A stretch of 37,999 bases of DNA. It comes from Fidelibacterota bacterium (GTDB lineage: Bacteria; Fidelibacterota; Marinisomatia; Marinisomatales; TCS56). Positions within the stretch are counted from its first letter, which is position 1, and each line of letters opens with the position of its first letter. Below, piece after piece: positions 7,428-21,238 of the stretch. Where the stretch lies: contig JBDRBK010000033.1 of the NCBI GenBank assembly GCA_043822705.1, forward strand, positions 1-37,999. Direction: 5' to 3'. Made by a program: the position numbers and the translations under genes. Under the pieces are notes generated by a model. The model was not told the origin of the DNA and did not search any database. It saw only the letters and a program-made list of their open reading frames with translations.

Positions 7428-8594
7428 TTATCTTCTCCCTACTGCAATAATTGCACGGCTTCCATCAAGAAGATACCCAACAATAACAGCAGTATCCCTA
7501 AAAAATGCCCCAGAATTAGATGAAAAATCATACTCATCAAATAATTGATTATTATGATCCCACGCTGCACCATTATAATGCACGTATTGAAATCCTCCGC
7601 CAACCATATATATATCATTTGGGCTTTGCACCATTAAAGCTCTATAGCTATAATCATATATTCCATTATCTATGATTGACTCTTCAGTCAAATAATTGTA
7701 TTTCCATAATCCTTGTCGAGTTACAAAATATGCAGTATCACCCCAAACACTGACACTTGATATAGCTCCCAAATCACTCGATGATTGTGGTCGCAAATAG
7801 TCTGCGTAATACAACTCTTCAACCACACCCTCATGAATCATTAGTGCAGTAGTATTCGTTGGAATCATTATATCATATCCGGCAGCAAATACATATTCTC
7901 CATCGGAACTACCGCTAACTGAAATCAATTTTGCATAATTTGGAGTTTCCAACTTCTCGCAACTCGAGCCATCCCAATAGACAATAGTTCCTTCATCCCC
8001 AACAAAATATATATCATTTTCATTATGGGCCCATAATTCAGTTACTGATTCATCAGAATTATAAAAATCTCTCTGCCAGATTATATTTGTCTCTAATCCA
8101 TCGTAATGGAAAATGCTGCCAGCGGCAAACCAAATATCATTTTCACTAAAATATTTTATAGCATTCGGTTCCAAAGAAGGGGTGGATACAGTTGGACCGT
8201 CTAATTGAACTATATTCCAGTTTTCACCGTCCCACACTATTGCACCGAAATATGTACTATCATTGCTTATTTTTCCAACAGCCCATATTTCACCATCATC
8301 AGTTATAGTGACATTATTAAAATAACTTAAACTGACACCAAAAGAATCTATTTCCCAAACAAAATTATGGCTGGTGGTGTCCCTTAAACATTCTGTCTGA
8401 TCATCATTCCAATGATAACCCGATTCACATTGGCAATCTTGCCCGTCAGTGCTCAGTATTTGGTGCGGACCACATTCCAACGGGTCAGCCGCTGGTTCCC
8501 GACAACCGATAGCACATATGACCAACCAGATGAAAAATATTAGCAGCGCTAAAATTGTGTATTTATCGGATTTTCCCACGGTTTGACGGTACAT
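7428..8594 (-). CDS. AT-rich hypothetical lipoprotein with a Cys-rich EGF-like module and WD/YDG-repeat beta-propeller-like body
   Basis: Hydrophobic leader ending AIG-C31 (lipobox); C41...CQC...C69 module; repeated IWAVG / WDGENW / IFHYDG / IVYWDG / VHYNG units; markedly lower GC than the flanks. Confidence 0.7.
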   Translation of the reverse strand: MYRQTVGKSDKYTILALLIFFIWLVICAIGCREPAADPLECGPHQILSTDGQDCQCESGYHWNDDQTECLRDTTSHNFVWEIDSFGVSLSYFNNVTITDDGEIWAVGKISNDSTYFGAIVWDGENWNIVQLDGPTVSTPSLEPNAIKYFSENDIWFAAGSIFHYDGLETNIIWQRDFYNSDESVTELWAHNENDIYFVGDEGTIVYWDGSSCEKLETPNYAKLISVSGSSDGEYVFAAGYDIMIPTNTTALMIHEGVVEELYYADYLRPQSSSDLGAISSVSVWGDTAYFVTRQGLWKYNYLTEESIIDNGIYDYSYRALMVQSPNDIYMVGGGFQYVHYNGAAWDHNNQLFDEYDFSSNSGAFFRDTAVIVGYLLDGSRAIIAVGRR

Positions 8595-8775
8595 CTAATT
8601 AGATTTATTATTTACTCTGAAACTACAATGGCAGTATAACCACTATCAATTCTCATTTTAATCAAATTGACAAACCCCGCCATTTACCCTCCCCGATCAG
8701 CCTAATGGCTGCGTACTACTCCAAAGAGTGTATCTAATAAGAAACGATTAAATAATTAAACCCTGACAATCCCAT

Positions 8776-10544: not shown

Positions 10545-11606
10545 TTACCCTGCCGCCAGCAGTTTCTTCTGGTCTTCGATGCGCAGCTGGTCGATCATTT
10601 CATTTAGGTCGCCGTCCAGGTATTCTTCCAGGCGGTAGACCGTGAAATTGATCCGGTGATCGGTAATTCGGCCCTGGGGAAAGTTGTAGGTGCGGATTTT
10701 GGCCGAACGGTCGCCGGTGGAGACCATCGATTTGCGGACCACCGAGCGTTCTTTGGCCAGTTTATCCTGTTCCTGGGCCAGCAGGCGCGAGCGCAGAACT
10801 TTCAGGGCCGCCGCCCGGTTTTTGTGCTGGGATTTCTCATCCTGACAGGTCACCACCAGGCCGGTGGGAAGATGGGTTATCCGGATCGCCGACTCGGTTT
10901 TGTTGACGTGCTGGCCGCCGGCCCCGGAGGCGCGGTAAGTATCGATTTTCAGATCCTGTTCGTCGACATCGATTTCCGCTTCTTCCGCTTCCGGCAAGAC
11001 AGCTACGGTGGCGGCGGAGGTGTGCACCCGGCCGCCGGTCTCGGTTTTGGGAACGCGCTGGACCCGGTGAACGCCGCTCTCATATTTCATCCAGCCGTAG
11101 ACGCCTTTCCCTTCCAGTAAAAAAATGACTTCCTTGAGGCCGCCGATGCCGGTGTCATTGGCACCCAGTACATCCTGCTTCCAGCCGGAGCGCTCGGCAA
11201 ATCGGGAGTACATCCGGAACAGGTCCGCCGCAAACAACGCCGCCTCTTCGCCGCCGGTGCCGGCCCGGATCTCGATAATCGTGTTCTTGTCGTCGTTGGG
11301 ATCCTTGGGCAGCATCAGCACTTTCAGTTCCTCTTCCAGCGCCAGGTTCCGTTCTTCTAACTCCCGCAGTTCTTCCGCGGCGATCGATTTCAGTTCTTCA
11401 TCGGAGCCGGCCAGAATTTCCCGGTCGTCGGCGATCTGCCGGTCGATGGCCAGGTATTCGCGTGCCTTCTTGACGACTGCTTCCAGGTGACTGTGCTCAC
11501 GGGCCAGATCGCGCATTTTTTCCTGGTTGGCGTGAGTAGCCGGATTGGCCAGTTGCCGGCCCAGTTCGTCGTGGCGGTCGATAATTTTCTGTAGTCTATC
11601 GATCAT
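10545..11606 (-). CDS. prfA: Peptide chain release factor 1
   Basis: [25 protein letters not shown] (PxT specificity motif), [18 protein letters not shown]. Confidence 0.98.
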
Positions 11607-12568
11607 GCGATCGCCTCGGCGACATAGGTTTTACCGACCATCTGCTCGTATTTTTCTCCGAATGCTTCGCGCAGGGCGGAAATGGCCACTTCGACCATTT
11701 CATCATCCGGCTCCTTGGTGGTGATGCGCTGCAGCCACAAACCCGGAGCCCGCAGGGCGCGAAACAGCAACCGATGACCGTTGCGGGCGCTGATCTTAAT
11801 CACTTCGTAAGACAGGCCCATCACCAGCGGAATCAACGGCAGGTGCACCAGCAGGCGGATGCCCAGCGATATAGTTCCCAGCAGGGCCAGAACGATCGTA
11901 TCGATCAGGGCGAAAATCAGGATCGCCGACAACATCACGATAAACAGAAAGCTGGTCCCGCAGCGCGGGTGCTGGGTCGGAAACGACTGGGCGGTTTCAA
12001 TGTCGATATTCCGGCCCGATTCAAAATTATAGACCACCCGGTGCTCGGCGCCGTGGTACTGGAACAGGCGGCGCACATCCTTAAGCAGCGATATGATCGC
12101 CAGGTACAGGATGAAAAAGGTGATCCGCAGCAGGCCCGATACCAGGTTGAAAGTCAGGGCTTCTTTTTCGATGTCCAGTAATTTGGTGGTGATCCACATC
12201 GGCCCGACCATGAATAACAGCAATGCCAGACCGACGGCAAATACAATCGAGAATAAATTGGCCAGCTTGCCGGGTTTTTTAGCCTGTTCTTCCACGGGCA
12301 GAGCGACGTCGGCCGACCACTGCAGGGTGCCGAAACCGATCCGCATTGATTCAAACAGGGCGGCCATGCCTCGCAGGACCGGCTTTTTCCAGACCGGTTT
12401 CCTGTCGGATAGGGATTGGAATTCGTGGCGATCGATCTGCACTTTGCCTTCCGGGTCGCGCACCGCCGTGGCATAAGCCCCGGGGACGCGCATCATAACG
12501 CCCTCGATGACCGCCTGCCCGCCCACCAGGATCGCCGGCTTCATCAATAACAGAGATAAATTTCGCAT
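11603..12568 (-). CDS. DUF1385 (YqhQ-like) membrane protein
   Basis: [41 protein letters not shown]; usual position between rpmE and prfA. An alternative start is ATG 12544. Confidence 0.92.
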
Positions 12569-12574
12569 GGATAT

Positions 12575-12608
12575 AAAAAGGGCTCCCCCTTCAGATGAAC
12601 GAGAAGCC
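12575..12608 (-). terminator. Probable intrinsic terminator after rpmE
   Basis: Minus strand GGCTTCTCGTTCATCTGAAGGGGGAGCC forms a hairpin with G-U pairs, followed by CTTTTT. Confidence 0.55.
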
Positions 12609-12627
12609 GCATTTTGATGTTATTTGG

Positions 12628-12834
12628 CTACTGTGCTTTTTGCTGATATTTGCGATTGAATTTTTCGATCCGCCCGGCCGTATCAACCAGCTTCTGTTTG
12701 CCGGTGAAAAAGGGGTGACACTGAGAACAGATTTCAATTTTCTGATCGCCGATCGTATTGTATACCTGAAAGGTATTTCCACAAGCACAGGAAATTTTCC
12801 CTAATTTATATTCGGGATGAATTCCTTCCTTCAT
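12628..12834 (-). CDS. rpmE: 50S ribosomal protein L31 (zinc-binding type)
   Basis: [41 protein letters not shown] Shine-Dalgarno upstream. Confidence 0.98.
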
Positions 12835-12843
12835 TCCAGACTC

Positions 12844-14055
12844 CTATTCTAATTCTTTTAGTACGCGGGCTACGCGTTTGATTCCTTCGCGGATATTTTC
12901 AAATCCGGTGGCGAAGGAGAACCGGATATATCCCGGTGCGCCGAAACCATCGCCGGGAACGGTCACCACCTGTGCCTGATCCAGGATGTAATTACCCAGA
13001 TCGGTGGCGGTTTTGAGCACCCGACCGTCGACGCTTTTACCCAGGTAGGCCGTCACATCCGGAAAAGCATAGAACGCACCGCCGGGCAGGGCGCAGTTAA
13101 GGCCGGGGATTTCATTCAATAATTGTACCATCAGATCGCGGCGCTCCTGGAACGTCCGCCGCATTTCCTCCACCGGTGCCTGGTCGCCATCCAGGGCGGC
13201 GATGGCGGCCATCTGTCCGATCGAGTTGGGGCAGGACGTCGCCTGACCCTGATGTTTGGCCATGGCCTTGGCAAGCAACGGTTCCGCTACGGCATAGCCG
13301 ATCCGCCAGCCGGTCATAGCGTAAGTTTTAGACATGCTCAGGCAGGTCACGATCCGGGCGCCGACCGTATTTAACTTCTCGGCCGAGGTGAATGTTTCAC
13401 CGTAAACCAGTCGCTCATAACACTCGTCGGCAATCACCGTCCAGTTGTGCCGGGCGGCAATTTCCAGCAGGCGCACGGTGGCCACCGTGGACCAGACGCC
13501 GCCGGTGGGGTTGGAGGGTGAATTGATGATCACGCCACGGACGCGATCGGTGATCTTGGCCTCCAACTCGGCGAAGTCGGGCTCCGAGTGCTGGTCCGGC
13601 AGAGTGGCGACAAACACCGGTTCGGCATCGGCCAGCCGCACAAACTCCGGAAACGAGACCCAGTAAGGCGTAAACACGATCACCTGATCGCCCTTTTCAA
13701 ACAGGGCCTGACAGGCGTTGAACAGACTGTGTTTTTCGCCGTTGGACACGACCACCATCTCGGGAGTGCATTGCAGCCCGTTTTCCCGCTCCAGCTTCCG
13801 GCAAATCGCTTTGCGTAATTCCGGCATGCCGGCGCCGGCCGTATATTTGGTATAGCCGGCATCCATGGCTTGTTTGGCAGCCTCGCGAATATGAACCGGT
13901 GTATTGAAATCCGGTTCGCCGACGCTGAAATTGATTACGTCGACGCCCTGGGCCCGCAACTCATTGGCGCGGGCCGCCATTTCCAGCGTGAACGACGGCT
14001 GAATCCGCTGGATGCGGTCAGCCAGTCGGAGCGGTGGTTTAGTGTTGTTTACCAT
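12844..14055 (-). CDS. aspC: PLP-dependent aspartate aminotransferase (class I/II)
   Basis: GEPDFNTP, YTAGAGMPELR, NSPSNPTG, DECYE, SMSKTYAMTGWRIGY (PLP lysine), GAFYAF, VPGDGFG. Confidence 0.9.
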   Translation of the reverse strand: MVNNTKPPLRLADRIQRIQPSFTLEMAARANELRAQGVDVINFSVGEPDFNTPVHIREAAKQAMDAGYTKYTAGAGMPELRKAICRKLERENGLQCTPEMVVVSNGEKHSLFNACQALFEKGDQVIVFTPYWVSFPEFVRLADAEPVFVATLPDQHSEPDFAELEAKITDRVRGVIINSPSNPTGGVWSTVATVRLLEIAARHNWTVIADECYERLVYGETFTSAEKLNTVGARIVTCLSMSKTYAMTGWRIGYAVAEPLLAKAMAKHQGQATSCPNSIGQMAAIAALDGDQAPVEEMRRTFQERRDLMVQLLNEIPGLNCALPGGAFYAFPDVTAYLGKSVDGRVLKTATDLGNYILDQAQVVTVPGDGFGAPGYIRFSFATGFENIREGIKRVARVLKELE

Positions 14056-15089
14056 TCGTGACGTTTTTTATGATATTCCTCGGTATTGAAGCGTGAATCG
14101 TCGTCCGGTGTTTCCTCGACCGGTTTGCGCCGGAGTTGACGGCGCGGTGGTGGGGGTGGTGGCGACGGTGGCTGAGGCGGTGGCGGACCCTGTTCCTCGA
14201 TTTCGAATTCCTCGGAAAACACCTTGCGCTTGAGACCCGGTCGCCGGGGCGGCCGGTGGGGGGCGCTGGTACGTCGATGCTCGTGAGGCCGGGGAACATC
14301 ATCCATGCCGATGCCTTCGTTCTCGGGCAACATTTTTTCGTCGAAGTCGTCCGGCGGTTCTTTATCGCCGATTTCGCCCTTGATCGAATCTTCGTCAAAG
14401 GAGAACATGGCCGGATTGTAAAGGCCGTAAATCGCGCCGTATCCGCGGGTAATACCGTTGCCGACACCGAGATAATTGGGCAGAATGAAATTAGTCCGGA
14501 ATTCACCGTTGAAGGCACCCCAGTAAGTCTCGTCGACCGTCTTGGGGAAAAGCGATGTCAGGCTCAACCGGGTGAAAATCTTCTCTTCCAGTTCCATACC
14601 CATCTCGCGCGCCAGAAAAACAATATTCTGGCTCAACAGCCGGCTCAGGTAATTGAGTTTTTCCATGCTGTTCAGGTAACGGTAACGAATGCCGGTGGTC
14701 TGGTTCAGCGCCACCCAGGGCGTGATAAAGCGGTACCTGATCATGCGCGTCAGGGGACGGAATAGATCGTCGCGTTCGTCGACATCGGTATCCAGCACCT
14801 GGAAGGTGATGTTGCCAAAATCCAGGAAATCGAATTTATCGACCAACGACAGGATTGGTTCCACGCCTTCGTTGATGCCGACGATGTAAATCTGTTCGTT
14901 GAGTATTTTCACCTGCACCCGGGGATAGAGAAATTGGTCGCGGTAGCGACCGTCCAGAAGCGGAATGATTTCCTCGTCCGGAAACTGGCGCATGAAGACG
15001 CCTTTTACCTGATACGGCGTCTTTTTAACCGGTTTATCGGTTATGATCTTTAAAGTAACAGTCTTAACAGCAGTGTATGAAGATTCCAT
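14049..15089 (-). CDS. Stand-alone Cas6b-like (RAMP) protein with a long acidic/Pro-rich C-terminal tail
   Basis: Residues ~1-222 follow the Cas6b motif series: LYPRVQVK, IVGINEG, YRFITPWVALNQ, LSRLLSQNI, FNGEFRTNFILPNYLGVGNGITRGYGAI (Gly-rich loop). Residues ~223-346 are low-complexity. GAGGTG Shine-Dalgarno upstream. Confidence 0.8.
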   Translation of the reverse strand: MESSYTAVKTVTLKIITDKPVKKTPYQVKGVFMRQFPDEEIIPLLDGRYRDQFLYPRVQVKILNEQIYIVGINEGVEPILSLVDKFDFLDFGNITFQVLDTDVDERDDLFRPLTRMIRYRFITPWVALNQTTGIRYRYLNSMEKLNYLSRLLSQNIVFLAREMGMELEEKIFTRLSLTSLFPKTVDETYWGAFNGEFRTNFILPNYLGVGNGITRGYGAIYGLYNPAMFSFDEDSIKGEIGDKEPPDDFDEKMLPENEGIGMDDVPRPHEHRRTSAPHRPPRRPGLKRKVFSEEFEIEEQGPPPPQPPSPPPPPPRRQLRRKPVEETPDDDSRFNTEEYHKKRHEW

Positions 15090-15135
15090 TGCTACACCTC
15101 GCTATAATTAATTAATCAAACAAATTAATTACCTT

Positions 15136-16383
15136 CTACTGGCTCATCGTATTGAGAAATTCCTCGTTGGTTTTGGTCCGTTTCAGCCTTTCCAGAAGGA
15201 ATTCCATCGCCTCGATAACCGTCATCTCATTAAGTAATTTGCGCAAAATCCACAAACGAGCCAACTCCTTTTTTGTCAAAAGTAGCTCTTCTTTGCGAGT
15301 TCCCGAGCGGATCAGGTCGAAGGACGGAAAAATCCGCCGATCACTCAGCCGTCGGTCCAGAACCAGCTCCATGTTACCGGTTCCTTTGAACTCTTCAAAG
15401 ATGACATCGTCCATCCGGCTGCCGGTGTCGATCAGGGCGGTGGCGACGATTGTCAGACTGCCACCCTCCTCGCAATTCCGGGCCGCACCGAAGAACTGTT
15501 TGGGTTTCTTCAGGGCGTTGGAATCGATACCGCCGGACATGATTTTGCCGCTATGCGGGATAACGGCGTTATGAGCCCTCGCCAGCCGGGTGATGCTGTC
15601 CAGCAGGATAACCACATCCTTGCCGAATTCCACCATCCGTTTGGCCTTTTGCATTGCCATTTCGGCGACACTGACATGACGCTCCGGCGGTTCATCGAAA
15701 GTTTAACTGACCACCTCGGCATCAACATTCCGCCGCATGTCGGTCACCTCTTCCGGGCGCTCGTCAATCAGCAGAACGATCATTTCCACTTCGGGATGAT
15801 TCTTGCGAATCGCATTGGCAATTTTTTGCAGAAGCACGGTTTTACCGGTCTTCGGCTGGGCCACGATCAGGGCCCGCTGCCCACGGCCGATCGGCGCGAA
15901 CAGATCCAGAGTCCGGGTGGAAAGATCCTTGGGATCGAACTCCAGGTTGAAGCGCACCTCCGGGTGGTAGGGCGTAAAATTATCAAATAAAATAGCCTGT
16001 TTGATCTGTTCCGGTAAAAAACCGTTGACATTATCGACTTTCAACAAGGCATAAAAACGTTCTTTTTCCTTGGGCGGCCGGATTTCGCCGCTGACCAGGT
16101 GGCCGGTACGCAGGCCGAAACGTTTTATTTGCGATGGACTGACATAAATATCATCGGGACCCGGCAGATAATTGAACCCGGGGCTGCGTAAAAATCCGTA
16201 GCCGTCCGGAAGGACCTCAAGGACACCACGAGCTTTGATCGATTCGTCTTTTTCTTCCTGAAGTTCCAGGATTTTGACGATCAGCTCCTGTTTGCGTCGG
16301 CCGGAATATCCTTGCACCCCCAAATCCTGCGCCAGCTTGGTCAGGTCCTTGATTTTCAGGGCCTGAAGTTCATTAACATCCAT
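15136..16383 (-). pseudogene. rho: Transcription termination factor Rho, interrupted by one in-frame TAA at 15703-15705 (nonsense allele or sequence error)
   Basis: Track ORFs 15703-16383 and 15136-15660 are in the same frame. Read-through gives ...[15 protein letters not shown]..., versus the conserved EVVSSTFDEP, for 415 codons in total. Other Rho motifs are intact: [70 protein letters not shown]. Confidence 0.93.
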
Positions 16384-16469
16384 GAGGATTCCTTTTTTGT
16401 GTATCTTTGAGTAGTATATCTACAGAAAAAACCTTTTCCGGAGTATAAAATCTGAGAACTTAACGTACG

Positions 16470-17747
16470 TTAAATTAACCCATCCTCAAACAAAAATCCA
16501 AATTTTAAATAGATTTTGTCAGCGATATAATGGCTGCCGAAAATCAGACCGGTCCTTCCACCGCCGGTCAGTTCCAAAATCCGGTCGAATGCAGCTTCGA
16601 TCGGCAGAATTTCATCCGGGCAGACACCCTGTTCGGTCAGGCTGGCGGCTAACCGTTCCGCCGTCATCAAACCATGGTCCGGAGAGGAAGTGACCACCAG
16701 ATATTTGAACGCGCCCCGCAGCACCGCCGCAATCGAACCGATATCCTTATCGGCTTTCAATGCCAGCAGCCCGATCGGTTCCCCGGTGGAAAACTGCCGC
16801 ACCCCGGCCAGCGCCGACCGGATGCCGTGGGCATTATGAGCGACATCGTAAAAAATTACCGGTTTCCGTGAAAGCAGTTGCATCCGTCCCGGCCATTTTA
16901 CGGTTTTCAAGCCTTTGTGAATGATTTCGTCAGGGATCTGCCGGTCAAAGGCTCGCACCGCTTCCAAGGCGGTCACGGCGTTCGACATCTGGTGCTGCCC
17001 GAGCAACGGCGTGGTAAATTCCCGCGCCCGCCAGCGGAATGTCGTACCACCCGCCAGATCAACCTTTGGTTCCTGCTGCGGGAGCCGCACCGGAATTATG
17101 GCAGCATTACGCTGGCCGGCAATTTCCTTCAGCACGATTGCGACTTCCGCTGTCTGGGGCGCCAGAACCAGTGGAACACCGTCCTTGATGATTCCCCCTT
17201 TTTCCCGGGCGATTTCGACGATATGACGGCCCAGGTACTCAGTGTGATCAATATCCACCGGCGTAATTACGGTCACTGCCGGCTGAACAATATTTGTGGA
17301 ATCCAAGCGCCCGCCCAGACCGGTCTCAATCACCGCAACGGTAACCTGGCACCGGGCGAAGTACCAGAAGGCCAGGGCGGTGGTGGCCTCGAAAAAAGTC
17401 GACTGAATACGGTCAATGTCAAGGCGGAAACTGGTGATAAAATCCACAATGTCGGCATCGGCGATCGGCGTTCCGTCAACGCGGATGCGTTCATTAAAAC
17501 GGATCAGGTGCGGCGATGTATACAGACCGACCCGGTGACCGGCCGTCCGCAGGATCGCGGCGATCGTGGCGGCGGTCGAACCCTTGCCGTTGGTACCGGC
17601 AATATGAATTAGCGGGTATTCCAGTTGCGGATTTCCACAGGCCGCCGCCAGGTCCCGGGTGTGCGTCAGTCCGACCTTGATGCCCAGGCGCTGCAGGTCG
17701 TACAGCCAGTGCAACAGTGCTTGAATATCGGTGGCGTTAGCAGTCAT
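16470..17747 (-). CDS. folC: Folylpolyglutamate synthase/dihydrofolate synthase
   Basis: HIAGTNGKGST, GLYTSPHL, FNERIR, ETGLGGRLDSTN, DHTEYLG, EKGGIIK, WPGRMQ, DVAHN. Confidence 0.96.
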   Translation of the reverse strand: MTANATDIQALLHWLYDLQRLGIKVGLTHTRDLAAACGNPQLEYPLIHIAGTNGKGSTAATIAAILRTAGHRVGLYTSPHLIRFNERIRVDGTPIADADIVDFITSFRLDIDRIQSTFFEATTALAFWYFARCQVTVAVIETGLGGRLDSTNIVQPAVTVITPVDIDHTEYLGRHIVEIAREKGGIIKDGVPLVLAPQTAEVAIVLKEIAGQRNAAIIPVRLPQQEPKVDLAGGTTFRWRAREFTTPLLGQHQMSNAVTALEAVRAFDRQIPDEIIHKGLKTVKWPGRMQLLSRKPVIFYDVAHNAHGIRSALAGVRQFSTGEPIGLLALKADKDIGSIAAVLRGAFKYLVVTSSPDHGLMTAERLAASLTEQGVCPDEILPIEAAFDRILELTGGGRTGLIFGSHYIADKIYLKFGFLFEDGLI

Positions 17748-17809
17748 TTTAACGGATATTGGCAGTTACAGAATTAATTCTCAGCCGAAAATATATTACC
17801 CGGAAGGGA

Positions 17810-19300
17810 TTAATTACCCTCGGCCAAAATCGTGTCTCGGGTATTCTTGAATTCTACGATCGCCTGGTAAACTGCTTCGGCGATCTTCTGCCGGTAGGAC
17901 GGTTTCTTCAGTAATTTTTCTTCTTCGGCATTGGATAAAAAACCGGTCTCGATTAAAACGTTGGGCATGCTGGCGCCGACCATCACATAAAATTCCGCCT
18001 GTTTGACACCGCGATTCTGTGAACTGATTTTTTTCGCCAGTTGATTCTGAATCGCCGCTGCCAGTCCTTCGCTTTCCTTGATGAAGGCACTTTGGGCCAT
18101 CGTTGCCATGATCAGAGCCTCGTTGCTCAAAACTGAAAAATTGTTTTCCTGTTCCTCTAACTTGATCACCTCGTTTTCCCGGGCAGCCACTTCAATTGCG
18201 TCGTCAGTCTTTCCCTGTGACAGGAAGTAGGTCTCAAATCCGCGGACCTTTCGATTCTCGGCACCATTGGCGTGAACGCTGACAAACAGTTTACCGTTGT
18301 TGGCGTTGGCGATTTTTGGCCGTTCGAGCAATGGGATGAATACGTCCTCATCGCGTGTATAAACAACTTTAATAGTAGTATTTTTCTCCAGCAATAAGCC
18401 GACCCGTTTGACGATATCCAGATTGATATCTTTCTCCTTGGTTCCGTACCGGCCAATCGTTCCGCCGTCCTTGCCGCCGTGTCCGGCATCCAGAACCACC
18501 GTATCCATATACCAGCGGTCGCGCAGGTCTTTCAGACGGGCCATACTGTCCATTACCGGTGTGCGCAGGGTGATCACGATTTCCGACGGCTCCTGCGTCT
18601 GGTACACTTCGTGGGCCTCGATCTTCGGCCGCAGTTGGAACGCCACCTGGGCCGACTCGTCCAGTTGGTCCACCAGAATCCTCCGGATCGAACTGCCGAG
18701 CTCCGAACGCACCAACGTCGACGAATCGGCCAGGCCGTTGGCCACTGTGATATAGAACCAGCCGTTTTCATGGACAAATGAGCTTAGATTGCCCTCGGGA
18801 AACACCGCTCGGGTCTGCAACCGGATTATCGTGCCGTTGGTCTTTTCTTCAAAGGTGACACCGGTGATGTTAAAATTAATCATATCCACGTCCAGCAACT
18901 GCCGGCTGGAATTATAAAGCAGTCCGGGAATCACCGTTTTTCCGAGGATAGAAAAAAATGTTTCCGCCGGAATGTAGACATCTTCGCCTACGGCCTGAGT
19001 ATAGGTCGGCAGTTGGTAGACCTGCTCATCGACCATAATGAAGCTGGACTGGGCCGAAATTTTCACCCGGTGATTGTTAAGATACAAAACGATTTTCTGC
19101 CGCTCGGGATTGACATAGTACCGGCACGACAGAATCCGCGCCAGATCGATGGAAGAAAAATAAGTGCCGGGACCGCGTTCCAGCGTTTTTAATTTATCCT
19201 GGTGCAGGTCGGCGCGAAATAAAACACGGATCGGCGCCGCCGACAGCAGCGTTTGACAAACCAGGAAGATTATCAGGAGTAGATTACGGGCTTTGACCAT
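17810..19300 (-). CDS. N-acetylmuramoyl-L-alanine amidase (Amidase_3, AmiC-like) with N-terminal accessory domains
   Basis: Signal peptide; VVLDAGHGGKD, EKDINL, TRDEDVFIPL, FVSVHAN, GFETYFL, LIETGFLSN, so the zinc ligands are intact. Confidence 0.93.
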   Translation of the reverse strand: MVKARNLLLIIFLVCQTLLSAAPIRVLFRADLHQDKLKTLERGPGTYFSSIDLARILSCRYYVNPERQKIVLYLNNHRVKISAQSSFIMVDEQVYQLPTYTQAVGEDVYIPAETFFSILGKTVIPGLLYNSSRQLLDVDMINFNITGVTFEEKTNGTIIRLQTRAVFPEGNLSSFVHENGWFYITVANGLADSSTLVRSELGSSIRRILVDQLDESAQVAFQLRPKIEAHEVYQTQEPSEIVITLRTPVMDSMARLKDLRDRWYMDTVVLDAGHGGKDGGTIGRYGTKEKDINLDIVKRVGLLLEKNTTIKVVYTRDEDVFIPLLERPKIANANNGKLFVSVHANGAENRKVRGFETYFLSQGKTDDAIEVAARENEVIKLEEQENNFSVLSNEALIMATMAQSAFIKESEGLAAAIQNQLAKKISSQNRGVKQAEFYVMVGASMPNVLIETGFLSNAEEEKLLKKPSYRQKIAEAVYQAIVEFKNTRDTILAEGN

Positions 19301-19363
19301 ATTTAGAGAATATTATCCGGCGAAGTTATTTCAGGCAGACGTACCATGCAACACGAGTCGGCG

Positions 19364-21238
19364 TCACAGATTTGCCTCGATCAACAATCCGCCTTCGAAA
19401 CCGTCTCGGGACAGTGCTCTGTTTTCCGGGGATAGACATCGAAGCCTGGCGAAAATCCGGTAGTTATTTTTGGTTTGATAACCCAGCCGAAGGCCCGGAT
19501 AATACCCGGAGGCAGCGTAGACGCGGCTGCGCATTTCGCCCGGCAGATTCAAATCCCAGAAATAAATCCGGCTGTCATAATCATCTGTTTTTACCAGCAC
19601 CTGGTCCAGCTCGGCCGACCAGGCAGCAGTCTGCCAACTGATGCGACTATCAACTCCCCAACCATGGGAATAGTTTCCGCCGGACTGAAAATCGACCAGA
19701 TTCGCCTGTAGTCGTATTTTCCAGTGGCGGCTGAAATCGCGATTCAGCGCAATTTTCACTGTTTGGCGTAATTCTTCATTAGCCAGCCCGGAATTTGCGT
19801 AATTAATGGTGTTTTCGAGCGAACGTTTTTCACGTTTCCATTGAAAGCGCAGTTTTTGCCGCCGGGATTGCCATTCCCAGCGTAGGGCGGTCTCGCTGCC
19901 CGATACGACCGATAACATCTTTGCCGCCGGTGCCGATTCACGGTAAATATCTCCGACACAGGTTAATTGATTTCGCCCCCAGTGCAGATTGAGGGACTGA
20001 AATAGACCGGATTCATTTTTCAGATCACCGGACCATTCCGTCAACGGATTTGCCCGCAGGGCGGTATAACCGCCGTCATATTTCCGGATCAGCAACAAAT
20101 AGTGCAGGGCCGACCGCAACCGGACGGAAACACCACCGAGCTGCCCCCGACTGGCATTAAAGCCGTGAGCAATTTCACCAAACATGTTCAACGATCCGAA
20201 GGACTTTGAACCAAAGACGGAACCAGAACCAAAATCGGTGCTGGAGCCGCCGCGATCCGACCAGCGCGAATGTGCCAGCGTTACACCCCCGGTATATTTT
20301 TCACGGCCGATTTCCCAAACGCCGCAAACAGCGTTTTCCATTAGTCCGGCCGGCGGATACACACCCGCAGCTGAGCGATGTAACCCAACCAGGTCGATAT
20401 CAGGGTAACCGGGAAACGGCAGCGTACCGTGTCGCCGGTTCCGGCTCGCCGATACAACTATTTTCTGACCGGCACCGCGCCACTGCAAGGCCAGTCCGCG
20501 CAGTGCCCAGGCTTCGTGTGTCGAACGATAGGACTGCAAACCGGGTCCCGGACGTCCGGCACTTTTACCCGTATCAAATCCCTTGTATCCCGGGTTTGAG
20601 CGCCAAAGATTGAGTCCGTACCCGGCAATAATTTGATGGTCGCCGATGATCCAGTCCAAGTCACCGGCTTTCCCTTGCCAGTATCCACCGGCAAAATCGG
20701 CGATAGCCAATTCTCCCGGATCGCGTTCCAGTAACAGCCCGCCTTGGCTATTCTCACCAAAATCGACCTTGGCGCGCCACAGATACCGAACATCGCTGCT
20801 GAAGACGACTAATTGCCGCAGCAGCAAATCAGTGCTGGAAAATGGTTCATTTTCCAGCAGGACGGCAATCAATTCAGCGATCGCCGGCGACAGGTCGGCT
20901 GTCACTAAATCGGCCCGTGGATTGGTGCTCCCTGCCAAGCGCCTGATCTTCCTGATTTCTTGTTCATCGACGATCGATAATTTCTCGATTGCGGCGATTG
21001 CCACTGCCGTCAAACCACGATTCTGGCGTAGCAACTCATCAATAATGATAATATCTTCTTCCGGCAGTGGCTGCTCCGCGTCGGGATGCAGTTCCTGCAA
21101 GAGCCGATCGATTGTCTGGGCGGTCAGGGTCTCAGCGCCGGGCGCTGCCAAAACCAAGACTAAAAACCCGTGACAAGCCCAGTTGCGGATGGGTGATGGT
21201 ATGATATTCAACACTGATTCCCTTGACTGTAAAACCAA
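19364..21238 (-). CDS. Hypothetical outer-membrane protein resembling the FCB 'ComEA/helix-hairpin-helix domain' beta-barrel family; start uncertain
   Basis: LLERDPGE..IADF, IIGDHQ..AGYGLNLW and DDYDSRIYFWD motifs; beta-strand-rich. The track start overlaps the upstream gene by 107 nt, so the true start is probably further downstream. Confidence 0.55.
   Translation of the reverse strand: MVLQSRESVLNIIPSPIRNWACHGFLVLVLAAPGAETLTAQTIDRLLQELHPDAEQPLPEEDIIIIDELLRQNRGLTAVAIAAIEKLSIVDEQEIRKIRRLAGSTNPRADLVTADLSPAIAELIAVLLENEPFSSTDLLLRQLVVFSSDVRYLWRAKVDFGENSQGGLLLERDPGELAIADFAGGYWQGKAGDLDWIIGDHQIIAGYGLNLWRSNPGYKGFDTGKSAGRPGPGLQSYRSTHEAWALRGLALQWRGAGQKIVVSASRNRRHGTLPFPGYPDIDLVGLHRSAAGVYPPAGLMENAVCGVWEIGREKYTGGVTLAHSRWSDRGGSSTDFGSGSVFGSKSFGSLNMFGEIAHGFNASRGQLGGVSVRLRSALHYLLLIRKYDGGYTALRANPLTEWSGDLKNESGLFQSLNLHWGRNQLTCVGDIYRESAPAAKMLSVVSGSETALRWEWQSRRQKLRFQWKREKRSLENTINYANSGLANEELRQTVKIALNRDFSRHWKIRLQANLVDFQSGGNYSHGWGVDSRISWQTAAWSAELDQVLVKTDDYDSRIYFWDLNLPGEMRSRVYAASGYYPGLRLGYQTKNNYRIFARLRCLSPENRALSRDGFEGGLLIEANL

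What the first reader, a model, noticed from the sequence alone, without database searches (positions are those of the whole stretch)
14424..15089. Cas6-like domain has no histidine: probable catalytically altered, RNA-binding-only protein
Seen: there is no His in residues 1-230; the first occurs in the tail (PRPHEH). The segment before YP-x-x-Q-x-K reads FPDEEIIPLLDGRYRDQFLYPRVQVK. Known: M. maripaludis Cas6b uses two histidines of an N-terminal H-x-H motif at about this position, although some other Cas6 enzymes use Arg/Lys/Tyr instead. Inference: the canonical active site was lost while the fold and G-loop were retained, as expected for a nuclease-dead hairpin-binding protein.
Basis: partly seen in the sequence, partly recalled or inferred. 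Interest (0 to 1): 0.7.

Follow-up and report, generated by a model that had tools for sequence, protein, structure and literature searches.

The report
Rho-linked Cas6b relative without catalytic histidines
This gene encodes a protein with the fold of the CRISPR RNA-cutting enzyme Cas6b that has lost that enzyme's two catalytic histidines, is inherited vertically in Marinimicrobia directly behind the transcription terminator gene rho rather than beside CRISPR genes, and so looks like a CRISPR protein recruited for a host RNA or transcription task.

Summary
ORF 14049-15089 (-) encodes 346 aa with no His before residue 269. The H-x-H of Cas6b is replaced by P-L-L with a one-residue gap. The protein is a true Cas6b homologue by Pfam, by PDB 4z7k (E 2e-25) and by fold (TM 0.80).

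The main result goes beyond the finding. In 44 of 44 phylum genomes that carry this clade, the gene lies directly downstream of rho on the same strand, and none has the H-x-H. The 15 other Cas6b genes found in the phylum all keep H-N-H, and 11 of them sit in type I-B cas operons. Cas1 was not found in 34 of the 44 genomes, this one included.

The clade is one branch of the family tree and follows taxonomy. Its domain is as conserved as housekeeping neighbours. It has also lost Tyr47 and several basic residues that are invariant in canonical Cas6b.

Best reading: an exapted Cas6b that no longer matures crRNA, is co-expressed with Rho and probably works with it. A Rho complex prediction gave only weak support. 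RNA binding and loss of all nuclease activity are inferred, not shown.

The parts
14049..15089 (-). Whole ORF, 346 aa: Cas6b-like domain plus a disordered C-terminal tail
   Evidence: Pfam Cas6b_N (8-105, 46.2 bits, cut-off 25) and Cas6b_C (115-220, 81.8 bits, cut-off 39.4)
14424..15089 (-). Cas6b-fold domain, residues 1-222 (the finding's span)
   Evidence: phmmer to 4z7k_B, E 2e-25. AF2 pLDDT above 90 over the domain. Foldseek 4z7k_A E 2.5e-18, TM (target) 0.80
14949..14963 (-). P43-L-L-D-G47: the site where canonical Cas6b has H-x-H. One residue shorter here. G47 is 98% conserved in the rho-linked clade
14931..14933 (-). F53, aligned with Mm Cas6b Y47. Tyr occupies this position in 93% of canonical rows and Phe in 65% of clade rows
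14436..14468 (-). Glycine-rich loop GVGNGITRGYG (residues 208-218). The glycines are invariant, but the canonical Lys at 211 is Asn here (N in 90% of the clade, K in 91% of canonical rows)
14052..14423 (-). C-terminal tail, residues 223-346. It is present only in the window's order (66-137 aa there), mostly low-confidence in the model, and carries conserved short motifs
14286..14303 (-). Tail motif DDVPRP, conserved as D-V-P-x-P/S followed by basic residues. The 261-270 block has pLDDT 86
14193..14231 (-). Tail motif KRKVFSEEFEIEE, conserved as K-K-V-L-S/T-E-E-F-D/E-I-E in most long forms
14058..14090 (-). C-terminal motif FNTEEYHKKRH, conserved as F-N-x-x-x-Y/F-H-x-K/R-x-H. It holds the only conserved histidines of the protein
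15090..15135 (-). 46-nt rho to Cas6b-like spacer. No terminator-like or promoter-like site was scored in it, and it ends in a GAGGTG Shine-Dalgarno-like sequence
15136..16383 (-). rho, the upstream gene of the conserved pair. In this assembly it is interrupted by an in-frame TAA at 15703-15705
12844..14055 (-). Class I/II aminotransferase gene that abuts or overlaps the end of the Cas6b-like ORF. It is the downstream member of the order-level operon-like row

Best explanation
The ORF is an exapted ('domesticated') member of the Cas6b family. It keeps the two-RRM Cas6b fold and the glycine-rich loop. It has lost the H-x-H catalytic pair, the assisting Tyr, and several basic residues that are invariant in canonical Cas6b. 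It is therefore very unlikely to mature crRNA by the Cas6b mechanism.

It does not belong to a CRISPR-Cas locus. It is inherited vertically in Marinimicrobia/Fidelibacterota as the gene immediately downstream of rho and is probably co-transcribed with it. The most likely role is an accessory factor in Rho-linked RNA or transcription biology. That could be an RNA-binding adaptor or a modulator acting with Rho.

In the window's order the protein has gained a disordered tail with three conserved short motifs, which look like docking sites for partners.

Shown: homology, fold, loss of the catalytic residues, the rho linkage, independence from CRISPR-Cas, vertical inheritance and strong conservation.
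Inferred: loss of nuclease activity, RNA binding, co-transcription with rho, and functional or physical coupling to Rho.
For: (1) Family and fold. Pfam Cas6b_N and Cas6b_C both score above their cut-offs. 4z7k_B matches at E 2e-25. The AF2 model has mean pLDDT 84.5 and the domain is above 90. The best Foldseek hits are 4z7k and 4z7l.

(2) Catalytic residues. H38/H40 are the complementary catalytic pair and Y47A lowers activity (PMC3479195, passages). Here these positions are P43, a gap, and F53.

(3) The genes partition cleanly. 43 fetched loci plus the window are rho-linked, and 0 of the 44 have H-x-H. 15 loci are not rho-linked, and 15 of 15 have H-N-H. 11 of those 15 lie beside cas8b, cas7, cas5, cas3 or cas1, and 2 lie beside arrays. 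Three genomes (G011, G015, G023) carry both kinds.

(4) Among the best 80 of 239 relatives in the one-genome-per-species collection, 78 have rho within 400 nt upstream. The other 2 have rho further upstream. 80 of 80 lack H-x-H. This set overlaps the genomes of point (3).

(5) The pair survives when the flanks change. In L044 the neighbours are carotenoid genes, UbiA and DnaE, yet the gap between rho and the gene is 12 nt.

(6) Independence from CRISPR. In this genome no Cas1 was found, no array was found by my k-mer script, and there is a single Cas6b_C hit. Cas1 was found in only 10 of the 44 genomes carrying the clade.

(7) The clade is one side of a branch (SH-aLRT 88-90), and its inner topology follows family, order and class.

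(8) Conservation. The domain has a median 70% identity across 20 order-level genomes. The neighbours score Rho N 72, Rho C 85, aminotransferase 63 and FolC 47.

(9) Rho plus this protein, using the cognate pair from L014 with alignments, gave a verdict of 'weak support'. The runs scored 0.01, 0.40 and 0.41 (median 0.40), and the best of 3 controls scored 0.06. The mark was reached by 116 of 157 solved complexes and by 2 of 215 mismatched pairs. At 0.60 or under, however, it was reached by only 18 of those 157 and by both mismatches that passed. The runs agree in at least 25% of contacts and the partner's pLDDT is at least 66. No solved Rho-Cas6 complex is known to me, so the score is unlikely to be recalled from a solved structure.

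(10) No terminator-like or promoter-like site was scored in the 46-nt spacer.
Against: - No RNA target was found. There was no Rfam hit above noise, no conserved intergenic element across families, no copy of a phylum I-B repeat in this genome, and no dispersed RNA-like repeat.
- RNA binding itself is in doubt. K161, K186 and K211, which are invariant in canonical Cas6b, are replaced, and net charge drops.
- His-less Cas6 enzymes can still cleave (PMC3652601, listing only). R50 and R57 are new conserved residues near the old site.
- The gene is dispensable. It was not found in 95 of 151 sampled phylum genomes with a clade profile. In f2 and f10 the row folC-rho-aminotransferase-rpmE is intact without it.
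- The complex prediction is only a weak pass, and one of its three runs scored 0.01.
- Rho shows no co-evolution signal. Only 2 of 203 conserved columns differ in at least 2 lineages that lost the gene.
- Conserved adjacency does not prove a shared function. rho and rpmE are also old neighbours (recalled).
Confidence: 0.6

Rival explanations
1. It is still an endoribonuclease. It would use other residues (for example R50, R57, K61, Y55) in place of the His pair, and would process a host RNA rather than a CRISPR repeat.
For: The fold and the G-loop glycines are kept. G47 (98%), R50 (90%) and R57 (86%) are clade-specific conserved residues next to the former active site, and K61 is kept in both groups. 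A crenarchaeal Cas6 with an atypical active site is described (PMC3652601, title and abstract in the listing). Single His mutants of Mm Cas6b retained considerable activity, which shows a tolerant site.
Against: The H38A/H40A double mutant shows a drastic loss of activity. Here both His and Y47 are gone, together with a one-residue deletion in the loop. Canonical basic positions are replaced as well. No candidate substrate was found.
Confidence: 0.2
2. The rho adjacency is only inherited gene order, or use of a convenient promoter. The protein would do something unrelated to Rho, for example act as an RNA chaperone or a protein scaffold through its tail motifs.
For: The gene is lost cleanly in f2 and f10 while rho and the downstream genes stay in place. 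There is no Rho co-evolution signal. The complex score is only a weak pass. The tail motifs are absent from the short forms, which suggests lineage-specific partners.
Against: The pair is kept with gaps of 9-16 nt in lineages where both flanks differ. 44 of 44 genomes keep the linkage over phylum-level divergence, where domain identity falls to about 25-30%.
Confidence: 0.15
3. It is a trans-acting crRNA maturase for CRISPR arrays elsewhere in the genome, or a decaying relic of a lost type I-B system.
For: NCBI names some members 'CRISPR-associated endonuclease Cas6'. 10 of the 44 genomes do have a Cas1.
Against: Cas1 was not found in 34 of the 44 genomes. This genome has no Cas1 and no array, with the caveat that it is 93% complete and arrays often fail to assemble. 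The three genomes with a type I-B operon carry their own H-N-H Cas6b next to it. Median identity of 70%, open frames and a tree that follows taxonomy argue against decay. Only one copy, L053, looks disrupted.
Confidence: 0.03

Closest known systems
Cas6b of type I-B CRISPR-Cas (Methanococcus maripaludis Cas6b, PDB 4Z7K/4Z7L; Pfam Cas6b_N and Cas6b_C)
   Same: Homologous over the whole domain (E 2e-25, about 27% identity). Same fold (TM 0.80). Same glycine-rich loop glycines and the same core motifs YP..Q.K, TPW.ALN and F.G.F..N.
   Different: No H-x-H and no Tyr47 equivalent. The canonical invariant positions R29, Y60, N132, G154, S158, K161, K186 and K211 are changed. There is no cas operon and no array; the gene is linked to rho instead. 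The window's order has an extra 66-137 aa tail.
Cas6 homologues without the usual catalytic residues (Pyrococcus Cas6-related protein, PDB 3UFC/3QJJ; the name 'Cas6nc' is recalled, not from a call)
   Same: A Cas6 fold with an altered active site. The PDB titles 'Characterization of a Cas6-related gene' and 'One RAMP protein binding different RNA substrates' appear among the fold hits.
   Different: Those proteins belong to another Cas6 subfamily (13% identity, TM about 0.47). As far as I recall they bind CRISPR repeat RNA in CRISPR-bearing archaea. They are not a vertically inherited, rho-linked bacterial clade.
Crenarchaeal Cas6 with an atypical, His-independent active site (PMC3652601; title and abstract seen in a search listing only)
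   Same: It shows that a Cas6 fold without the canonical His can exist and function.
   Different: That enzyme is an active crRNA-processing enzyme within CRISPR-Cas systems. No CRISPR context exists here.
Protein modulators of Rho: Rof/YaeO, Hfq, phage P4 Psu, NusG (all recalled, none from a call)
   Same: Under the best reading this would be another small protein that works with or on Rho.
   Different: There is no sequence or fold relation to any of them. None is Cas-derived, and none is encoded as a fixed gene pair with rho across a phylum, to my knowledge.
Type III-associated Cas6 acting as a negative regulator of type I-B in Thermus thermophilus (PMC12102369; listing only)
   Same: A precedent for a Cas6 protein with a regulatory role beyond crRNA cleavage.
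   Different: That protein still acts within CRISPR-Cas and is a different Cas6 lineage.

Membership tests
Cas6b (Pfam Cas6b_N PF17955 + Cas6b_C PF17262) | Both domain models score above their gathering cut-offs | tested here: met
   46.2 bits (cut-off 25) and 81.8 bits (cut-off 39.4). This is lower than the cas-linked Cas6b of the same phylum, which score 77-103 and 119-144 bits.
Cas6b | Two-RRM Cas6b fold | tested here: met
   AF2 domain pLDDT above 90. Foldseek 4z7k_A E 2.5e-18, TM (target) 0.80.
Cas6b | C-terminal glycine-rich loop G-x-G-x5-G-x-G | tested here: met
   GVGNGITRGYG. G208, G210, G216 and G218 are invariant in 95 rows. The loop Lys of canonical members is Asn here.
Cas6b | Catalytic H-x-H pair (Mm H38/H40) and the assisting Tyr (Y47) | tested here: not met
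   P43, a gap and F53. 0 of 44 clade members have the motif. 15 of 15 cas-type phylum homologues and 98% of 46 canonical rows have it. The role of these residues is taken from PMC3479195.
Cas6b as a CRISPR-associated gene | Encoded in or next to a type I-B cas operon or a CRISPR array | tested here: not met
   No repeats of 20 nt or more at array spacing in the window. No Cas1 and no array found in the genome. The neighbours are rho and an aminotransferase.
Cas6b | Site-specific cleavage of CRISPR repeat RNA | not testable with these tools
   This needs purified protein and RNA substrates.
Rho-associated factor (functional class, not a sequence family) | Physical or functional interaction with Rho | tested here: inconclusive
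   The gene pair is conserved in 44 of 44 genomes. The complex prediction gave weak support: 0.40 against a best control of 0.06, with one of three runs at 0.01. No co-evolution signal was seen in Rho.

The most novel reading that the evidence does not exclude
A Cas6b nuclease was captured early in Marinimicrobia/Fidelibacterota, lost its active site, and became a lineage-specific partner of the termination factor Rho. In this reading it is an RNA-recognising subunit or governor that tells Rho where to load, or where not to. The order-specific tail motifs would tether it to Rho, RNA polymerase or the ribosome. This would be the first Cas-derived component of the core transcription termination machinery.
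Probability: 0.3. Interest if true: 0.85.

Novelty: new variant of a known kind. Interest (0 to 1): 0.72.

Why it matters
Exaptation of Cas proteins outside immunity is known for only a handful of cases. Here a single Cas6b gene, without any other cas gene or array, has been kept for a phylum's worth of evolution in a fixed pair with rho.

If it acts with Rho, it is a new kind of Rho cofactor in an abundant and little-studied ocean and subsurface phylum. It would also be a natural, nuclease-dead Cas6 scaffold.

The case also matters for annotation. Public records label these proteins 'CRISPR-associated endonuclease Cas6' or 'hypothetical'. That label would wrongly suggest CRISPR immunity in genomes where Cas1 was not found (34 of 44).

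A cultured member of the phylum carries a short form. A cluster member is named for Fidelibacter multiformis, so the question can be tested at the bench.

Tried and rejected
RNA target searches:
- Rfam at E up to 1 over 11000-20000 gave only a chance-level p27_CRE hit, 25 bits against a gathering score of 42.
- The rho leader, the rho-gene spacer and the downstream spacer from 35 loci show no element conserved across families. A recurring GGTGTAG just upstream of the start in some close relatives looks like a Shine-Dalgarno region.
- The 37-nt repeat of a type I-B array from the same phylum (L052) has no match in this genome at 3 mismatches or fewer.
- A genome-wide count of 16-mers found only two heptamer tandem repeats and a coding-looking dispersed repeat.

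CRISPR in the genome:
- My k-mer script flagged 5 places where a 14-mer occurs 3 times at a spacing of 45-110 nt. I did not inspect them. None has more than 3 copies.

Rho co-evolution:
- Only 2 of 203 conserved Rho columns differ in at least 2 lineages that lack the gene. This gives no signal.

Distribution outside the phylum:
- The first genome-contig scan, with the broad alignment A2, was not run because the alignment had no conserved stretch.
- The narrower alignment A5 can only find close relatives. Absence outside the phylum therefore rests on names of a few representatives and is not shown.

Literature:
- Searches for 'Cas6'+'Marinimicrobia', 'Cas6'/'exaptation'/'Rho', orphan/solo/stand-alone Cas6 phrases and 'Cas6b'/'4Z7L' found no description of a rho-linked Cas6.
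- The review PMC8730458 (passages) lists other Cas exaptations but not this one.
- The paper on the Mm Cas6b-RNA structure was not in the searchable library, so RNA-contact residues could not be mapped.
- PMC13355072 and PMC11096372 (passages) gave no residue-level information.

Expression:
- One 151-nt contig of an RNA-seq library (X7) is identical to 14508-14653. DNA carry-over cannot be excluded, and contigs cannot show co-transcription.

Earlier scan notes:
- Nothing was on record near this place.

Full report
**1. The observation**

The finding's span, 14424-15089, is the first 222 codons of a 346-codon ORF on the minus strand, 14049..15089. Its histidines are at residues 269, 271, 278, 340 and 344. 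The first 230 residues have no His and no Cys.

With 2.14% His in the long open frames of the window, zero in 230 residues has a probability of about 0.007 by my arithmetic. Complete lack of His is not a family trait, however. Order-level orthologues carry 0-5 scattered His in the domain, and only 3 of 21 have none. The conserved trait is the loss of one particular motif.

**2. What the protein is**

- Pfam finds Cas6b_N (residues 8-105) and Cas6b_C (115-220), both above their cut-offs. NCBIfam finds nothing.
- The best solved relative is M. maripaludis Cas6b, 4z7k_B, E 2e-25 over residues 27-220.
- An AlphaFold2 model built on a 95-row alignment has mean pLDDT 84.5, with the domain above 90.
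- Foldseek puts 4z7k and 4z7l first (E 2.5e-18, TM 0.80 on the target). Other Cas6 families follow far behind.

It is therefore a real Cas6b homologue.

Richter et al. 2012 (PMC3479195, passages read) showed three things for Mm Cas6b. H38 and H40 are complementary catalytic residues. The double mutant loses activity drastically. Y47A lowers activity. In the phmmer alignment H38 faces P43, H40 faces a gap and Y47 faces F53.

**3. The motif across the family**

I aligned 106 full-length representatives from a search of 1.84 billion cluster representatives (869 hits at E 0.001 or better; the best 150 were listed).

- 7 do not cover the region.
- 71 have H-x-H. One of these (P0179) has it only as an out-of-register H-E-H.
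- 28 lack it. Of these, 21 resemble the window's clade and 7 are other Cas6b that keep one His or none.

In alignment A1, His occupies both positions in 98% of 46 canonical rows and in none of 49 clade rows.

The clade also differs at other positions that are near-invariant in canonical Cas6b: R29, Y53, Y60, N132, G154, S158, K161, K186 and K211. It has residues of its own: G47 98%, R50 90%, R57 86% and N211 90%. The median net charge of the domain is +2 (+1 in the window's order), against +6.5 for canonical rows.

**4. Context, the main result**

*This genome.* The window has no CRISPR-like repeats. The genome is a 3.34-Mb, 218-contig assembly rated 93% complete. It has one Cas6b_C match, no Cas1 match and no array by my script. 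The upstream gene is rho and the downstream gene is a class I/II aminotransferase.

*The phylum.* Named homologues are from Marinimicrobia, Neomarinimicrobiota and Fidelibacterota. In a sample of 151 phylum genomes, 55 match the protein and 56 match a clade profile. I fetched 58 loci around these matches.

| Group | Loci | H-x-H present | Neighbours |
|---|---|---|---|
| rho-linked | 43 loci plus the window (44 genomes) | 0 of 44 | rho directly upstream, same strand |
| not rho-linked | 15 loci | 15 of 15 (H-N-H) | 11 beside type I-B cas genes, 2 also beside arrays; the other 4 are at contig ends or showed no cas gene in the fetched stretch |

For the rho-linked group, the spacers measured in 35 of these loci are 9-114 nt. 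Three genomes carry both kinds.

*Flanks.* In the window's order the row is amidase-folC-rho-Cas6b-like-aminotransferase-rpmE-DUF1385. In more distant families both flanks differ, but rho and this gene stay 9-16 nt apart.

*Wider check.* Among the best 80 of 239 relatives in the species-representative genome collection, 78 have rho within 400 nt upstream, the other 2 have it further upstream, and none has H-x-H. That set overlaps the first one and is not independent of it.

*CRISPR-Cas.* Cas1 was found in 10 of the 44 genomes with the clade. It was found in 11 of the 14 genomes with a cas-type Cas6b.

**5. Evolution**

On a maximum-likelihood tree of 98 rows the 39 rho-linked rows are one side of a branch (SH-aLRT 88-90). 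Their order follows family, order and class. I left out L032, L046, L053 and L065 for truncated, over-extended or split ORF calls. I used 45 of the outside representatives.

Across 20 order-level genomes the domain has a median 70% identity to the window's. This compares with Rho N-half 72, Rho C-half 85, aminotransferase 63 and FolC 47. That is unlike fast-evolving cas genes.

The gene is not universal. It was not found in 95 of the 151 genomes. In the about-1-Mb genomes of family f2, and in f10, the row folC-rho-aminotransferase-rpmE is intact with rho abutting the aminotransferase gene. It is therefore an accessory gene and not an essential one.

**6. The tail**

Residues 223-346 exist only in the window's order, where the tail is 66-137 aa. 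The tail evolves fast, with a median identity of 33%. It keeps three short motifs:

- D-V-P-x-P followed by basic residues (window residues 263-268);
- K-K-V-L-S-E-E-F-D/E-I-E-E (287-299);
- a C-terminal F-N-x-x-x-Y-H-x-K-x-H (334-344).

The two C-terminal ones are. The model gives the first motif pLDDT 86, which suggests it packs on the domain. I could not inspect the coordinates.

**7. Mechanism**

The best reading is an exapted Cas6b that no longer matures crRNA and works in the orbit of Rho.

- Co-transcription is inferred from the short spacers and from the lack of a scored terminator or promoter in the 46-nt spacer.
- A complex prediction for the cognate Rho and this protein from L014 gave 'weak support'. 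The runs scored 0.01, 0.40 and 0.41 (median 0.40), with a best control of 0.06. The mark was reached by 116 of 157 solved complexes and by 2 of 215 mismatches. At 0.60 or under it was reached by only 18 of the 157 and by both passing mismatches. The runs agree in at least 25% of contacts and the partner's pLDDT is at least 66.
- No RNA target was found, and Rho shows no co-evolution signal.
- Loss of all nuclease activity is not proven. A His-independent Cas6 is on record (PMC3652601, listing only), and R50 and R57 are new conserved residues by the old site.

**8. Comparison and novelty**

The protein passes the sequence, fold and G-loop tests for Cas6b. It fails the catalytic-motif and CRISPR-association tests. 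I file it as a Cas6b-derived protein, not as a Cas6b enzyme.

I found no description of a rho-linked Cas6 in four literature searches, nor in the review of Cas exaptations. Public records call members 'hypothetical' or 'CRISPR-associated endonuclease Cas6'.

**Verdict**

- The more interesting fact is the phylum-wide pairing with rho.

Noticed in passing
window 15703-15705 (-), inside rho (15136-16383): rho carries an in-frame TAA where 34 of 34 related Rho proteins have an invariant Ser (VVS*TFDEP against VVSSTFDEP). Contigs from all four public runs laid on the stretch read G at 15704, which gives TCA (Ser). The stop is therefore private to this assembly. It is either a real recent mutation in this population or an assembly or sequencing error.
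   Followed up: partly
window 14058-14090 (-) and orthologues (L014-L033): The only conserved histidines of the protein are two in the extreme C-terminal motif Y/F-H-x-K/R-x-H of the long forms. Nothing indicates that they reach the old active site (pLDDT 46-57 there), and the short forms lack the motif.
   Followed up: no
L053 (G039:C3), around locus 8103-8672: The rho-linked copy in this genome appears disrupted. It has a 189-aa ORF whose end does not align, plus a separate 58-aa frame that matches residues 186-228. It is the only apparently broken copy among 44.
   Followed up: no
L017 7598-7711 (rho to Cas6b-like spacer): This spacer is 114 nt because a unit of about 45 nt is duplicated in tandem. 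A GGTGTAG element recurs just upstream of the start codon in several close relatives, sometimes twice (L020, L022).
   Followed up: no
genome G000, dispersed: A 23-nt word occurs about 12 times across the genome. It probably encodes the Y-P-N-P-F-N-P motif of a secretion-sorting C-terminal domain (recalled, not tested). Two heptamer tandem arrays give about 25-28 copies of their 16-mers.
   Followed up: no
genome G000: C25, C82, C88, C115, C123: At five places a 14-mer recurs three times at a spacing of 45-110 nt. They are too small to call CRISPR arrays, and I did not inspect them.
   Followed up: no
window 14508-14653: A 151-nt contig from a metatranscriptomic library (run X7) is identical to this part of the ORF. 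This is a hint that the gene, or a near-identical one, is transcribed in nature. DNA carry-over is not excluded.
   Followed up: partly
L150-L154 (genomes without the gene): In the about-1-Mb genomes of family f2 the rho stop abuts the aminotransferase start (0-10 nt). This looks like a clean excision of the Cas6b-like gene during genome streamlining.
   Followed up: partly
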